DNA from: a virus
IMG/VR virus record: IMGVR_UViG_3300044878_000031
Coordinates: 48,173-112,172 of that record
Reading direction: 5' to 3' (one strand)
DNA length: 64,000 nt
The translations under genes and the position numbers were made by a program. The notes under the pieces were generated by a model, which worked only from the letters and a program-made list of their open reading frames with translations, had not been told where the DNA came from and did no database searches. This document shows, piece by piece, positions 1 through 5,185 of this stretch; positions within the stretch are counted from its first letter, which is position 1, and each line of letters opens with the position of its first letter.

Positions 1-26
1 TTAGATCCACTGGATTACGAGTTAGG

Positions 27-121
27 TGATCCTCTCAGCGTTTGTCACGCCAAGTTAAACATGAAGACCGGGAACGGCTATCCGCGAATTCGCAAGCCAA
101 TAGTTCTTCAACGTAAGGATC
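27..121 (-). ncRNA. candidate structured RNA (may extend past window edge)
   Basis: Nested stems GATCCT/AGGATC, TGAAGA/TCTTCA, GAAC/GTTC, GGCT/AGCC and GCGAATTCGC, directly downstream of tRNA-Tyr; no credible ORF. Confidence 0.45.
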
Positions 122-217: not shown

Positions 218-301
218 AGCTGACAATGTTAGGCATCGAAGCCCTGCTAGTTCCCGGACCGCACTAGCTTTCCATTAACGACGGCTGACGCGTTGTCAGC
301 T
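218..301 (-). ncRNA. candidate structured RNA with T-loop-like hairpin
   Basis: Closing stem AGCTGACAA/TTGTCAGCT, internal GCTAGT/ACTAGC stem and GGGC-TTCGAT-GCCT hairpin. Confidence 0.5.
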
Positions 302-344
302 ATGGCCCTCGCTAATGACTCCCCAGGAGTGCACTGCCACAAAA

Positions 345-483
345 TGGTCCTCCGCTGTCGGATCTACCGACGCGACCGCTTCAACTGACCCCCGGCGTAC
401 GGGACGTTTAGGTTACACTAGAACAACATTCCCACGCAGTAGCGTTCACAATGCGCACTCTAATGGCCTTGGTCTACAGAGGA
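345..483 (-). ncRNA. CCA-ended tRNA-like RNA with large internal domain
   Basis: TCCTCTG/CGGAGGA acceptor-like stem followed by CCA; T-arm-like GTCGG-TAGAT-CCGAC; GACC/GGTC encloses two G-U-containing hairpins. Confidence 0.55.
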
Positions 484-497
484 TGAAACTATGAATT

Positions 498-627
498 TGG
501 CCCCGAGGGGTGGACTCGAACCACCGACCTCCCGCTGGCAAGCGTGTTTAAACGTTCTCGCCACGTTAGTAGCTATCAACGTAACCGCATGTCTAACGAG
601 TGTTCTAACCGACTGAACTACCCAAGG
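498..627 (-). ncRNA. tRNA-like RNA with 60-nt structured anticodon loop
   Basis: D arm GTAGTTCAGTCGGTTAGAA, anticodon stem CTCGT/GCGGG, T arm GGTGG-TTCGAGT-CCACC, G discriminator and CCA; loop 536-595 is 60 nt instead of 7. Confidence 0.75.
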
Positions 628-629
628 GA

Positions 630-875
630 TTGAAAGACTAACCGCTACCCCGACCTACGGAATGCAATACTCACTGTGACCTCTGGAGGAAAAGAAAGAA
701 AACCCCAGAGCAACTCGGTATGCAATCGAGCCATGTAACACATTGAGTCGGGTCACGCTACTCCAACCGCAGAACACCGGAAGTCCGTCAAGTCCCAGTA
801 GATTCCCCTTTCGCCGTGAAGCTAGAGGTCGTGCTGGAATCCCTGCTATCGGTCAGTAACGTGTAGGTCTCTCAA
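630..875 (-). ncRNA. candidate ~245-nt multi-stem RNA
   Basis: Ends pair (TTGAGAG/CTTTCAA and ACTGACCG/CGGTTAGT); internal stems GATTCC/GGAATC, CTCTGG/CCAGAG, CTCGA/CCGAG, CCCGAC/GTCGGG. Confidence 0.55.
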
Positions 876-900
876 TAGATCACTGGAGTATGTAAATTAT
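871..900 (-). promoter_or_regulatory. putative middle-type promoter (ATCTATTGAG motif) for the RNA operon
   Basis: Same 10-mer at 4274-4283 (upstream of phuZ) and 56608-56617 (upstream of uvsX), each with an upstream A/T-rich element. Confidence 0.55.
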
Positions 901-913
901 TACGTAAACTCAG

Positions 914-941
914 GCAAAAAAAAAGGCCCGGTGAAGGGCCC
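914..941 (-). terminator. intrinsic terminator
   Basis: GGGCC/GGCCC-type hairpin followed by T9-GCC on the minus strand, downstream of 957..1370. Confidence 0.65.
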
Positions 942-956
942 CATTGGAAAAGGGTG

Positions 957-1370
957 TTACGGAATCTCTGGGAAGCCCACGATCTTCAGGACTAGGTTAC
1001 GCTTACGGCGATACCAACCAATGGATCTGGTAGGGTAGCCACGTTCCTCACTCTGCTTACGAATGGTCTCGTCATCTTCAAACAGCAGGGGGACTGGGAA
1101 GTATCTCCAGTGTTCTTGACTACCGTGCCTGACTAAGGCGTGGAGTGTACGCTTACTCCAATTGCCGGTGGTAATGCCTTCGATCAATTCTTGTTTGATT
1201 GCTTCGATGCACTCGGCTGCGTTGGAGGCGTTGAATAGATTGTTGTAGTGCGCAACAGTTGTACCTGACTCTTCGTCGTTAGCACGTTTCATGATGTATA
1301 GGACACCACCATTCTCATGCTTGGCAATGTTACCGTTAGCGTAAGTGTGAGTGTGGTATTCGCGGGTCAT
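957..1370 (-). CDS. hypothetical early protein
   Basis: ORF; start moved to MTREY (GAAGG RBS), downstream of a TATATTAC promoter. Confidence 0.75.
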   Translation of the reverse strand: MTREYHTHTYANGNIAKHENGGVLYIMKRANDEESGTTVAHYNNLFNASNAAECIEAIKQELIEGITTGNWSKRTLHALVRHGSQEHWRYFPVPLLFEDDETIRKQSEERGYPTRSIGWYRRKRNLVLKIVGFPEIP

Positions 1371-4216: not shown

Positions 4217-4273
4217 TTTCTACATCCTAGATCAGTTAATTTCGACGGTAGGTTTTACAAGAGTCGCATTACT

Positions 4274-4304
4274 CTCAATAGATACTACCACGGAATCTTT
4301 TTTT
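4274..4304 (-). promoter_or_regulatory. putative promoter of phuZ
   Basis: AAAAAAAGATTCC...ATCTATTGAG. Confidence 0.55.
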
Positions 4305-4369: not shown

Positions 4370-5185
4370 ATGAATCCTATTCAAAAAGCAATCTCGGACG
4401 TCAAAGCGAGTATCCCTCGGGAGATCCTCGAACGCACGTTCATGAAGCCGGACTCGATTGCCTACGGTACACGCAGCTCTTATAGCCCTACCTCGTTAGA
4501 CTTCCGTATTCGTACGGCGGTGATCGAGGGTAACGTTCTACCTGACTGTAACTTGGTCGGTGGTACTGAGGTGACTATTCCGTTGAGTTCAGTGATCCCA
4601 CAAATGGTTTCTGACTACAACGTGATCTACCGTGTGCCGAAGTCTCTCACCCAGAACCGCAGTATCCTGAGACTGTTACACCTGACCTTCGGTGATGGTG
4701 GTGTGGTCGGTAGTATGAACTTGGCTATCCAAGGTCGCTCTGCCATGATGGATGCTGCTCAGGGCGTTCTACAGGCTCACCTGCCGATTCCTATCGTCTC
4801 CACGGCGAACTTGGAACTGGTAGCAGAAAACACGGTCATGGTGAAAGACAACATTACCATGCCGGGCAACCCGTACTTACGTTGTGTGGTAGAGGGCGAC
4901 ACTGAACTCAACCACTTGCAACCGACTTCGTATAAAGCGTTTTCGAAGTTGGTGGTATTGGCGACTAAGGCGTACATCTTCAACAACATTGCGATCCCGA
5001 TGGACCAAGCAGCACTGTCGGGTGGTATGGCGTTAGGACGTATCCGTGAAATCGTCGATGGCTACTCGGATGCTTACGAGCAGTACGATACCTACTTCGA
5101 GGAAGTTTGGCGTAAGGTGGCGATCTTTAACGATCCAGAAGCCAACAAGCGTCACCTCAAGTTACTTACCGGGGGTCGCTGGTAA
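4370..5185 (+). CDS. conserved phiKZ-like hypothetical protein (likely virion-associated)
   Basis: 271-aa ORF, GAGG RBS, TATG upstream, divergent from phuZ. Confidence 0.75.
   Translation: MNPIQKAISDVKASIPREILERTFMKPDSIAYGTRSSYSPTSLDFRIRTAVIEGNVLPDCNLVGGTEVTIPLSSVIPQMVSDYNVIYRVPKSLTQNRSILRLLHLTFGDGGVVGSMNLAIQGRSAMMDAAQGVLQAHLPIPIVSTANLELVAENTVMVKDNITMPGNPYLRCVVEGDTELNHLQPTSYKAFSKLVVLATKAYIFNNIAIPMDQAALSGGMALGRIREIVDGYSDAYEQYDTYFEEVWRKVAIFNDPEANKRHLKLLTGGRW

What the first reader, a model, noticed from the sequence alone, without database searches (positions are those of the whole stretch)
345..483. Second CCA-ended tRNA mimic with acceptor and T-like arm but a foreign ~95-nt core
Seen: 5' TCCTCTG pairs with 3' CGGAGGA-CCA, and a 5-bp arm GTCGG-TAGAT-CCGAC sits at the T-arm position. 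GACC/GGTC closes a domain with a long G-U-rich hairpin (TAGAGTG/TGTTCTA, GCATT/AATGT, ACGC/GCGT) and TCCCG/CGGGG. There is no TTCG T-loop, so tRNA finders will probably miss it. Inference: a minihelix-like handle, as in tmRNA or viral tRNA-like structures, attached to a novel domain.
Basis: partly seen in the sequence, partly recalled or inferred. Interest (0 to 1): 0.75.

Follow-up and report, generated by a model that had tools for sequence, protein, structure and literature searches.

The report
Stripped-down tRNA handle carrying conserved RNA
This is a real, conserved ~138-base RNA gene in the tRNA operon of an uncultured phiKZ-like jumbo phage: a cut-down tRNA "handle" carrying a folded 93-base domain where the anticodon arm should be, so it cannot decode, and it belongs to the poorly understood tRNA look-alike RNAs first seen in phage T4.

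Summary
Folding energy alone does not set it apart from shuffled sequence (z = -1.25).

Comparison with relatives settles the matter. I found 13 further distinct homologs in syntenic tRNA arrays of related uncultured phages.
- The 93-nt core is conserved. It folds as a three-way junction, with 95% of cells paired against 28-39% when partners are slid. 22 of 32 pairs show compensatory changes.
- The tRNA part around the core varies. Seven homologs have a full D arm and a canonical T arm. This copy, its two near-identical copies and one divergent relative have no D arm and a 5-bp/5-nt hairpin. A third group has a 4-bp hairpin.

So the element is a tRNA-derived carrier with a non-decoding cargo. 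It is not an intron-bearing tRNA, tmRNA, YrlA or a pseudogene.

It is probably cut out of the polycistronic transcript by tRNA-processing enzymes. That step and its function are inferred, not shown.

The closest known are the T4 stable RNAs rnaC and rnaD, whose roles are unknown. R1, the covariance model I built from the core, finds no match in the T4 tRNA region, so there is no detectable homology.

This scan has already noted the same kind of RNA, with other cargos, in at least 63 other genomes. I class it as a new variant of a known kind, of moderate interest.

The parts
483..497 (-). 15-nt spacer / presumed 5' leader between the CCA of the upstream insert-bearing tRNA-like RNA (498-500) and the element
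   Evidence: Sequence. The leader ending in ...TAGTTTCA is conserved in the L007, L008 and L015 lineages. Cleavage here by RNase P is inferred, not shown.
476..482 (-). Acceptor stem, 5' strand (7 nt); pairs with 349-355
   Evidence: 7 pairs, two of them G-U. The same 7-bp + N73 + 3-nt tail layout is seen in L022 and in the D-arm-bearing homologs. Acceptor sequences differ between lineages but stay paired.
475..475 (-). Single A linker; the D arm is absent here
   Evidence: Homologs L003-L006, L015/L016 and L021 have a 2-3-nt linker, a 4-bp D stem, an 8-9-nt D loop and N26 at this point.
471..474 (-). Anticodon-stem equivalent, 5' strand; pairs with 374-377
   Evidence: In A4, all five pairs of this helix have at least one compensatory change across the family. 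The RNAfold centroid agrees.
378..470 (-). 93-nt conserved cargo core: a three-way junction with a long hairpin (Px, Pa, Pb, Pc) and a second hairpin (Pd)
   Evidence: Alignments A3 and A4, model R1. 94.9% of cells are paired against 28-39% when partners are slid. 22 of 32 pairs have double changes, and 0 of 500 shuffles reach the observed covariation score.
410..469 (-). Long hairpin: Px 469-467/412-410, Pa 465-460/421-416, Pb 456-450/430-423, Pc 445-442/437-434, apical loop 441-438
   Evidence: Coordinates, pair counts. The apical loop varies between relatives (UUCG, GCAA or a 4-6-nt loop), so it is not sequence-specific.
431..449 (-). 4x3 internal loop that encloses Pc: 5' side RUGA (449-446) and 3' side GGR (433-431), with nearly invariant bases
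   Evidence: UGA and GUGG are invariant in the 12 sequences of A3. In A4, GA and GTGG are invariant and the U is at least 75% conserved. This is the best candidate for a recognition site, which is an inference.
383..408 (-). Second hairpin Pd: 408-406/385-383 and 404-401/392-389, with a variable loop
   Evidence: Three of the 8 pairs have compensatory changes and four never vary.
374..377 (-). Anticodon-stem equivalent, 3' strand
357..371 (-). 5-bp hairpin with a 5-nt loop at the T-arm position; not a T loop
   Evidence: Near-identical hairpin in L022 with a compensatory closing pair. Canonical 5-bp/7-nt T arms in type i relatives. A 4-bp/6-nt hairpin with compensatory changes in L007, L008, L023 and L025.
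349..355 (-). Acceptor stem, 3' strand (A356 is a 1-nt linker)
345..348 (-). Discriminator A348 and encoded CCA (347-345)
   Evidence: Sequence. CCA is encoded in 9 of the 14 homologs; the other tails are TCA, ATC, CCC and ACC.
869..881 (-). Context: conserved motif at the head of the RNA island, a possible phage promoter or 5'-end element
   Evidence: Exact match here and a 1-mismatch copy at 4272-4284(-), just upstream of phuZ. Five matches at <=2 mismatches against 1.15 expected. Conserved in relatives.
923..942 (-). Context: intrinsic terminator of the upstream ORF. No terminator-like site lies within 1-900, which fits one polycistronic RNA

Best explanation
The element is a gene for a non-decoding, tRNA-derived carrier RNA.

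How it is made (inferred):
- It is transcribed as part of the minus-strand polycistronic tRNA operon of a phiKZ-like (PhuZ-encoding) jumbo phage.
- Its acceptor stem, discriminator and encoded CCA let the host tRNA-maturation machinery release it. RNase P would cut at the 5' side of C482, and 3' trimming would stop at CCA 345.
- The product would be a stable RNA of about 138 nt.

What the working part is:
- It is the 93-nt cargo that sits where the anticodon arm would be. This is a three-way junction with a long hairpin that carries a nearly invariant 4x3 internal loop (RUGA / GGR), plus a second hairpin.
- The cargo most likely acts in trans as a binding platform or decoy for a host or phage protein.
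- In this copy the carrier has been pared down to acceptor stem, connecting stem and a short hairpin, with no D arm and no T loop. The tRNA elbow is therefore dispensable for the function.

Shown here: gene family, fold, conservation pattern, non-decoding nature and operon context.
Inferred: processing by RNase P and 3' enzymes, stability, trans action and the partner.
For: 1. Context. The element lies inside a minus-strand array of 10 canonical tRNAs plus insert-bearing ones. It follows a terminator and a conserved head motif, and no terminator lies inside the island. The phage is phiKZ-like, with PhuZ and a split RNAP beta.

2. Homologs. They occupy the same syntenic slot in every related contig that reaches that far: six from IMG/VR and eleven of thirteen metagenome loci, giving 14 distinct sequences. 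There is one copy per genome.

3. Core fold.
- On A3, 95.3% of cells are paired against 27-40% when partners are slid, and 13 pairs have double changes.
- On A4, which adds a divergent member found by the model (L022, 45.7 bits), 94.9% are paired and 22 of 32 pairs have double changes. The covariation score is 0.483 against 0.209 for shuffles, reached by 0 of 500.
- The MFE fold of L022 taken alone gives the same architecture.

4. The scaffold varies while the core is kept. There are three scaffold types, and all their helices are maintained by compensatory changes.

5. Modularity.
- The same reduced scaffold occurs in two different clades of the neighbour-protein tree, each next to full-scaffold relatives.
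- The L003 scaffold is 23/27 and 33/36 identical to that of this phage's other carrier RNA (498-627), which holds a different insert.

6. No decoding loop.
- The connecting stem opens straight into the junction.
- ARAGORN in intron mode assigns inconsistent anticodons to the homologs: Ser-cga, Gln-ttg and Gly-ccc.
- The GUY that would be read as part of an anticodon loop covaries as a pair with AAC/GAC.

7. No conserved ORF on either strand.

8. Precedent. T4 rnaC (139 nt) sits in the T4 tRNA cluster and has a canonical T arm plus 5'/3' pairing around two foreign hairpins.
Against: - There is no expression or end-mapping data.
- The single-sequence folding energy is unremarkable: z = -1.25 for this copy, and -0.7 and -0.6 for L007 and L008.
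- This copy lacks the T loop and D loop elbow that bacterial RNase P normally uses. Efficient processing is therefore an assumption. Minihelix substrates are known to be cleaved, which I state from general knowledge and did not test.
- No partner protein was identified. The adjacent conserved 137-aa ORF has no family or fold match.
- The 14 sequences come from one phage clade, so some covariation counts reflect shared descent.
Confidence: 0.6

Rival explanations
1. It is a functional tRNA gene interrupted by an intron. The core would be removed and the exons ligated to give a decoding tRNA, as proposed for the oversized tRNA genes of Lak megaphages.
For: ARAGORN in intron mode calls several homologs as tRNAs with 63-85-nt introns. 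Devoto et al. report conserved "introns" in phage tRNAs (PMC6784885). Type i homologs have complete acceptor, D and T arms.
Against: - This copy, L022 and the L007 group lack the D arm and T loop, yet they keep the core. The conservation pattern is the reverse of that expected for exon and intron.
- There is no 7-nt loop with U33 on either side of the insert.
- The anticodons called differ between homologs.
- At 88-93 nt the core is far too short for a group I intron, and no Rfam intron hit was found.
- No RtcB ligase is found in five genomes of the clade.
Confidence: 0.06
2. It is a cis-acting structural spacer of the polycistronic pre-tRNA. It would be a folded "punctuation" unit that guides or times processing of the neighbouring RNAs, with no function once released.
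For: It is wedged between two other processed units with only 15-nt and ~4-nt spacers.
Against: A mere spacer would not need a nearly invariant internal loop and junction kept across lineages whose flanking units differ. In L003, L004, L006 and L022 the upstream tRNA-like unit is replaced by a small ORF, yet the element is kept. It also has its own acceptor stem and CCA end.
Confidence: 0.12
3. It is an aminoacylatable tRNA mimic that acts on the ribosome or on EF-Tu, in the manner of tmRNA or a viral TLS.
For: It has an acceptor stem, a discriminator and an encoded CCA. The overall layout (acceptor, T-position hairpin, a large domain in place of the anticodon arm) resembles the tRNA-like domain of tmRNA.
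Against: - No G3-U70 in any of the 14 acceptors.
- No tag reading frame.
- ARAGORN's tmRNA search is negative.
- The T loop and D region, which tmRNA retains, are missing here.
- CCA is not conserved in 5 of the 14 homologs.
Confidence: 0.07
4. It is a Y-RNA-like (YrlA-type) RNA that tethers a Ro/Rsr-type protein or another RNA-surveillance factor.
For: YrlA RNAs also contain a tRNA-like module and occur in some phages (my knowledge of Chen et al. 2014). Weak sub-threshold YrlA hits lie near the elements in L015 and L005.
Against: - Those hits score 23-25 bits against a gathering score of 69, and they mostly cover the neighbouring unit.
- There is no YrlA hit on this copy at E<=10.
- No TROVE/Ro gene is found. 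The single hit in G003 lies on the non-coding strand and has three stops.
- In YrlA the 5' and 3' ends form the Ro-binding stem, not an acceptor with CCA.
Confidence: 0.04
5. It is a decaying tRNA pseudogene, or chance pairing in spacer DNA.
For: The folding energy is not better than that of shuffles. The D arm and T loop are lost.
Against: It is conserved in all relatives, with 22 of 32 pairs showing compensatory change. The reduced scaffold itself keeps every helix, including a compensatory change between this copy and L022.
Confidence: 0.02

Closest known systems
Bacteriophage T4 stable RNAs rnaC (species 1, 139 nt) and rnaD (species 2, 119 nt)
   Same: Both are encoded inside a phage tRNA gene cluster on the tRNA strand, directly abutting tRNAs, and are of similar size. 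rnaC has paired 5' and 3' ends stacked on a canonical T arm, with two foreign hairpins in place of the D and anticodon arms. Their function is still unknown (PMC3014915; PMC9697503).
   Different: No sequence or structure homology: the best R1 score in the T4 tRNA region is 10.6 bits. The cargo differs. This copy has lost even the T loop, and the phage lineage is different (phiKZ-like versus Straboviridae).
Oversized phage tRNA genes reported as tRNAs with conserved "enigmatic introns" (Lak megaphages, Devoto et al. 2019, PMC6784885)
   Same: tRNA-shaped genes in huge-phage tRNA sets with a conserved insert in the anticodon region.
   Different: Here the insert is conserved while the tRNA body is dispensable, which argues against an intron. 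The paper offers no covariation or scaffold-loss evidence, and there is no sequence relation.
tmRNA tRNA-like domain
   Same: An acceptor stem with a CCA end plus a hairpin at the T position, with the rest of the RNA emerging where the anticodon stem would be.
   Different: No G3-U70, no tag ORF, no pseudoknot ring, no T loop, about 138 nt rather than about 360 nt, and ARAGORN is negative.
YrlA / bacterial Y RNA-like (Rfam RF02553)
   Same: A non-coding RNA that embeds a tRNA-like module, also found in some phages.
   Different: The topology differs, because in YrlA the ends form the Ro-binding stem. There is no Rfam hit and no Ro gene.
Engineered tRNA scaffolds for recombinant RNA (Ponchon and Dardel; cited from my own knowledge)
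   Same: The cargo is inserted in place of the anticodon loop, so that cellular tRNA enzymes process and stabilise it.
   Different: That scaffold is a laboratory design that keeps the full tRNA body. Here the arrangement is natural, and the body is reduced in two different ways.

Membership tests
tRNA (Rfam RF00005 / ARAGORN) | Cloverleaf with a D arm and a T arm bearing a 7-nt T loop | tested here: not met
   No D arm, and a 5-nt loop at the T position. No RF00005 hit at E<=10 and no ARAGORN call, even in intron mode.
tRNA (Rfam RF00005 / ARAGORN) | 7-nt anticodon loop with U33 and a conserved anticodon | tested here: not met
   The connecting stem opens into a 93-nt three-way junction. Homologs receive inconsistent anticodon calls.
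tRNA (Rfam RF00005 / ARAGORN) | 7-bp acceptor stem, discriminator base and CCA end | tested here: met
   482-476 pairs with 355-349, followed by A348 and CCA 347-345.
tRNA gene with group I intron | Intron of 200 nt or more with a conserved catalytic core, inserted in the anticodon loop | tested here: not met
   The insert is 88-93 nt, with no Rfam intron hit.
tmRNA | G3-U70 alanine identity pair in the acceptor | tested here: not met
   Absent from all 14 acceptors.
tmRNA | mRNA-like region with a tag peptide ORF | tested here: not met
   The core is almost fully paired. No consistent open frame exists, and ARAGORN's tmRNA search is negative.
YrlA (RF02553) | Match to the covariance model at the gathering score, with a Ro-binding terminal stem | tested here: not met
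   No hit on the window at E<=10. Nearby sub-threshold hits in relatives score 23-25 bits against a gathering score of 69.
YrlA (RF02553) | Associated Ro/Rsr (TROVE) protein gene | tested here: not met
   None in 5 genomes of the clade apart from a spurious antisense hit with stops. The host genome is unknown.
Phage tRNA-cluster stable RNAs (the T4 rnaC/rnaD kind) | Encoded within a phage tRNA gene cluster on the same strand, abutting tRNAs | tested here: met
   T4 layout.
Phage tRNA-cluster stable RNAs (the T4 rnaC/rnaD kind) | About 120-140 nt, with tRNA-like paired termini, a T-position hairpin and non-tRNA hairpins | tested here: met
Phage tRNA-cluster stable RNAs (the T4 rnaC/rnaD kind) | Accumulates as a discrete stable RNA released by tRNA-processing enzymes | not testable with these tools
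Phage tRNA-cluster stable RNAs (the T4 rnaC/rnaD kind) | Sequence or structure homology to rnaC or rnaD | tested here: not met
   R1 scores at most 10.6 bits in the T4 tRNA region.
Viral 3' tRNA-like structures (TLS) | 3'-terminal element of a +ssRNA virus genome with a pseudoknotted acceptor, aminoacylated | tested here: not met
   This is an internal gene of a dsDNA phage with an ordinary acceptor helix. Aminoacylation cannot be tested here.

The most novel reading that the evidence does not exclude
This phage clade may run a modular carrier-and-cargo system. Interchangeable structured RNA effectors would be mounted on tRNA-derived handles that recombine between genes and between phages. The handle would serve only as a ticket to host processing and stability, or, in a nucleus-forming phage, to exit from the phage nucleus along with tRNAs. 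The natural reductions seen here would then define the minimal ticket as acceptor stem plus connecting stem plus any short hairpin. The conserved RUGA/GGR loop and junction of this cargo would bind and neutralise or redirect a specific host protein, for example an RNA-targeting defence or a translation or RNA-decay factor.
Probability: 0.25. Interest if true: 0.8.

Novelty: new variant of a known kind. Interest (0 to 1): 0.5.

Why it matters
Phage tRNA clusters have been known since the 1970s to hold tRNA look-alikes (T4 species 1 and 2) whose roles are still unknown. Huge-phage surveys have called similar genes "tRNAs with introns".

This family offers a natural deletion series. The same cargo sits on a full tRNA body, on a body without D arm and T loop, and on an even smaller one. 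That argues directly that the insert is the functional part and the tRNA part is only a handle. It also shows how little of the tRNA is needed.

The family provides a covariation-backed model (R1, alignments A3 and A4) for a new RNA family. It also gives a concrete set of three scaffolds to test for RNase P processing and stability. If the cargo has a specific protein partner, the result would open a class of phage RNA effectors. It could also supply compact natural RNA-expression scaffolds.

Tried and rejected
- **Thermodynamic significance.** z = -1.25 for this copy, -0.71 for L007, -0.57 for L008 and -2.19 for L022. This is not informative.
- **Rfam.** I ran the gathering and E<=10 searches on the window, and E<=1 on four relatives. 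Only canonical tRNAs and noise came up.
- **Isolated phages.** blastn matched only tRNA-Tyr, and tblastn with the neighbour ORF found nothing.
- **Pattern scans.**
  - An exact 27-mer of the 3' part found nothing in IMG/VR.
  - A degenerate core pattern found only the same clade in IMG/VR, and nothing in one genome per 185,579 prokaryote species.
- **R1 in other phages.** The five closest isolates (LucasX, RTH11, Xoo-sp14, RP12, FLC9) gave nothing significant, with a best E of 0.3. The T4 tRNA region gave nothing.
- **Ro and RtcB.** The only TROVE hit is antisense to the genes and has three stops, so I judge it spurious. RtcB is absent.
- **Pseudoknots.** A column-pair screen of A4 gave no contiguous run.
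- **Coding potential.** No conserved frame.
- **Neighbouring 137-aa ORF as a possible partner.** No Pfam or PHROG family was found. The AlphaFold model has pLDDT 72.8, and there is no PDB fold match at E<=0.001.
- **Informal resemblance checks by eye.** I compared the element with CRISPR repeat mimics, k-turn, sarcin-ricin, hammerhead and the tetraloop receptor. None fitted. These were not tool tests.
I redid it using positions only.

Full report
**1. What is at the coordinates**

All positions are on the minus strand of the window.
- Window 483-345 starts 15 nt after the CCA of an insert-bearing tRNA-like gene. Rfam calls that gene a tRNA at 501-627, with 60 nt in place of the anticodon loop.
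- The element ends in an encoded CCA at 347-345.
- ARAGORN finds only tRNA-Tyr (127-212) in the window.
- Rfam has no hit on the element, even at E<=10.
- RNAfold gives -48.7 kcal/mol, with z = -1.25 and 25 of 200 shuffles folding as well. Folding energy alone therefore does not set it apart from chance.

**2. Genomic context**

- The window is part of a 112-kb IMG/VR contig estimated at 41% complete.
- It encodes PhuZ tubulin, split multisubunit RNA polymerase beta subunits and a phiKZ-type tail sheath. It is therefore a phiKZ-like jumbo phage.
- Its tail sheath is at most 48% identical to that of any isolate; the closest is Xanthomonas phage LucasX.
- The element lies at the promoter-proximal end of a minus-strand array. 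The array holds ten canonical tRNA genes plus several oversized ones.
- The array follows the intrinsic terminator of an upstream ORF (942-923), and there is no terminator-like site inside 1-900.
- The island begins with a motif at 869-881 that recurs, with one mismatch, just upstream of phuZ.
- This arrangement fits a single polycistronic RNA that has to be cut into units.

**3. Homologs**

- The upstream 137-aa ORF retrieved six syntenic IMG/VR loci. An alignment of it retrieved 13 metagenome loci.
- MAFFT of the RNA islands showed the element in the same slot in all six IMG/VR loci. BLAST located it in eleven of the thirteen metagenome loci. The other two are short contigs: L017 ends at the upstream ORF, and the L022 copy was found later by the model.
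- I aligned the core together with its closing stem (A3). I derived a structure from RNAalifold and by inspection, then built covariance model R1.
- R1 recovered every copy, and also a divergent one in L022 (45.7 bits, E about 1e-9) that was not used to build the model.
- There is exactly one copy per genome.
- A degenerate core pattern found no other carriers in IMG/VR, and none in one genome of each of 185,579 prokaryote species.
- R1 finds nothing significant in the five closest isolated phages or in the T4 tRNA region.
- The family therefore appears confined to one uncultured clade.

**4. The fold**

On A3:
- 95.3% of cells form standard pairs, against 27-40% when the 3' partners are slid by 1-3 columns.
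- 13 of 33 pairs show changes on both sides.

On A4 (13 distinct rows, including L022):
- 94.9% of cells are paired, and 22 of 32 pairs have compensatory changes.
- The covariation score is 0.483, against 0.209 for column shuffles; 0 of 500 shuffles reach it.

These sequences are related and A4 is fitted to the model, so the counts are generous. Two independent checks still support the fold. The slid controls keep relatedness and collapse. The MFE fold of L022 taken alone reproduces the architecture.

In window coordinates:

| Feature | Positions |
|---|---|
| Connecting stem | 474-471 / 377-374 |
| Px | 469-467 / 412-410 |
| Pa | 465-460 / 421-416 |
| Pb | 456-450 / 430-423 |
| 4x3 internal loop | RUGA at 449-446, GGR at 433-431 |
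| Pc | 445-442 / 437-434 |
| Pd | 408-406 / 385-383 and 404-401 / 392-389 |

- The apical loops vary (UUCG, GCAA or others), so they are not sequence-specific.
- The internal loop and the junction purines are invariant or nearly so.
- The homology-derived structure of this copy costs -44.0 kcal/mol, or -47.0 when refolded under that constraint, against an MFE of -48.7.

**5. The tRNA part**

A position-based parse of all 14 sequences shows three carriers for the same cargo.

| Type | Members | Body |
|---|---|---|
| i | L003, L004, L005, L006, L015, L016, L021 | 7-bp acceptor, 2-3-nt linker, 4-bp D stem with 8-9-nt D loop, N26, 5-6-bp connecting stem, variable loop, 5-bp T stem with a canonical 7-nt T loop, discriminator, tail |
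| ii | this copy, L014/L026, L022 | 7-bp acceptor, one A, 4-5-bp connecting stem, GC, 5-bp hairpin with 5-nt loop, one A, acceptor, A, CCA (ACC in L022) |
| iii | L007, L008, L023, L025 | 6-bp acceptor running directly into the connecting stem, then a 4-bp hairpin with a 6-nt loop |

- Every helix is maintained, often through compensatory changes. Examples are the hairpin closing pair between this copy and L022, the type iii hairpin, and the acceptor of L004 against L021.
- By this comparison the acceptor of this copy is 482-476 with 355-349, followed by discriminator A348 and CCA.
- The partner of GACC is the GGTC at 377-374.

**6. Which part is under selection**

- The core is kept in all lineages: 61-70 of 93 positions are identical to this copy.
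- The D arm and T loop are lost in two different ways.
- On a tree of the neighbouring protein, the type ii carrier occurs in two separate clades, each alongside type i relatives.
- The type i carrier of L003 is 23/27 and 33/36 identical to the carrier of this phage's other oversized gene (498-627), which holds an unrelated insert.
- Carrier and cargo therefore behave as separable modules. The cargo is the conserved, functional part.
- This is the opposite of what an intron in a working tRNA would show.
- ARAGORN's intron mode gives the homologs discordant anticodons: Ser-cga, Gln-ttg and Gly-ccc.
- The bases it reads as part of an anticodon loop covary as a helix.
- No reading frame is conserved on either strand.

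**7. Mechanism**

Shown here:
- a conserved, structured, non-decoding RNA gene;
- it is embedded in a phage tRNA operon;
- it has an acceptor-like terminus with a discriminator and a usually encoded CCA.

Inferred:
- release by RNase P on the 5' side and by tRNA 3'-end processing;
- stability conferred by the paired termini;
- trans action of the cargo, most likely as a protein-binding platform centred on the invariant internal loop and junction.

I also could not identify a partner:
- There is no TROVE/Ro gene. The single hit is antisense to the genes and has stops.
- There is no RtcB.
- The conserved upstream ORF has no family or fold match.

**8. Comparison with the known**

- The nearest known kind is T4 rnaC (139 nt) and rnaD (119 nt), annotated as small stable RNAs next to tRNA-Arg.
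- Folding rnaC shows paired termini stacked on a canonical T arm, with two foreign hairpins.
- Their roles remain unknown (PMC3014915; PMC9697503).
- There is no homology to this family.
- Devoto et al. described conserved "introns" in Lak phage tRNAs (PMC6784885). The present family argues that at least some such inserts are cargo, not introns.
- tmRNA, YrlA, viral TLS and group I intron tRNAs each fail defining features (see Membership tests).
- Earlier notes of this scan report the same kind of RNA, with different cargos, in at least 63 other genomes. The kind is therefore not new to the scan.
- What this case adds is the natural scaffold-reduction series within one cargo family, and its occurrence in a phiKZ-like phage.

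**9. Verdict**

- This is a new RNA family, absent from Rfam, that is a new variant of a known but unexplained kind.
- Its function is unknown, and processing is inferred.
- Interest is moderate.

Noticed in passing
window 498-627 (-): An upstream oversized tRNA-like gene with complete acceptor, D and T arms and about 60 nt in place of the anticodon loop (Rfam tRNA 35.9 bits). Its insert is conserved in L007 and L008. Its carrier is nearly identical to the carrier that holds the R1 cargo in L003 (23/27 and 33/36 identical).
   Followed up: partly
window 218-341 (-): A very strongly conserved RNA unit between the element and tRNA-Tyr. A 23-nt stretch is exact, allowing R at one position, in five IMG/VR contigs. 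In L004 it contains a T-arm-like GGTTCGATCC. It is probably a third carrier-type RNA.
   Followed up: partly
window 630-880 (-): The first unit of the island, about 250 nt and conserved in all relatives, with a pyrimidine-rich loop. It starts at the motif also found upstream of phuZ (869-881 and 4272-4284). No Rfam match.
   Followed up: partly
window 23-32 (-), within the unit at about 27-121: The unit downstream of tRNA-Tyr carries GGATCACCT. GGATCACC is conserved in relatives and resembles the 3' end of 16S rRNA just before the anti-Shine-Dalgarno (stated from my own knowledge). It could be chance.
   Followed up: no
L003, L004, L005, L006: about 4480-4640 of each locus; L022: 1011-1163: In these relatives a small hydrophobic ORF of about 50 aa, beginning MMRAVF, lies upstream of the element. 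In L003, L004, L006 and L022 it takes the place of the 498-627 tRNA-like unit of this phage. The element is kept all the same.
   Followed up: no
window 960-1370 (-): A conserved 137-aa ORF with an invariant basic C-terminal motif (GWYRRKRN) always precedes the RNA island. It has no Pfam or PHROG family, and its AlphaFold model (pLDDT 72.8) has no PDB fold match.
   Followed up: yes
G003:C1:190175-190561 (L029 4176-4562, +): A TROVE (Ro) profile hit of 25 bits lies 4-8 kb from the RNA island of the L007 genome. It is antisense to the ORFs there and has three stops, so I judged it spurious.
   Followed up: yes
G000:C1:45820-45898 (before the window start): ARAGORN calls a tRNA with an undetermined or odd anticodon loop. 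Earlier notes describe an elongated anticodon helix capped by UUCG. It is another non-decoding tRNA-shaped gene in the same array.
   Followed up: no
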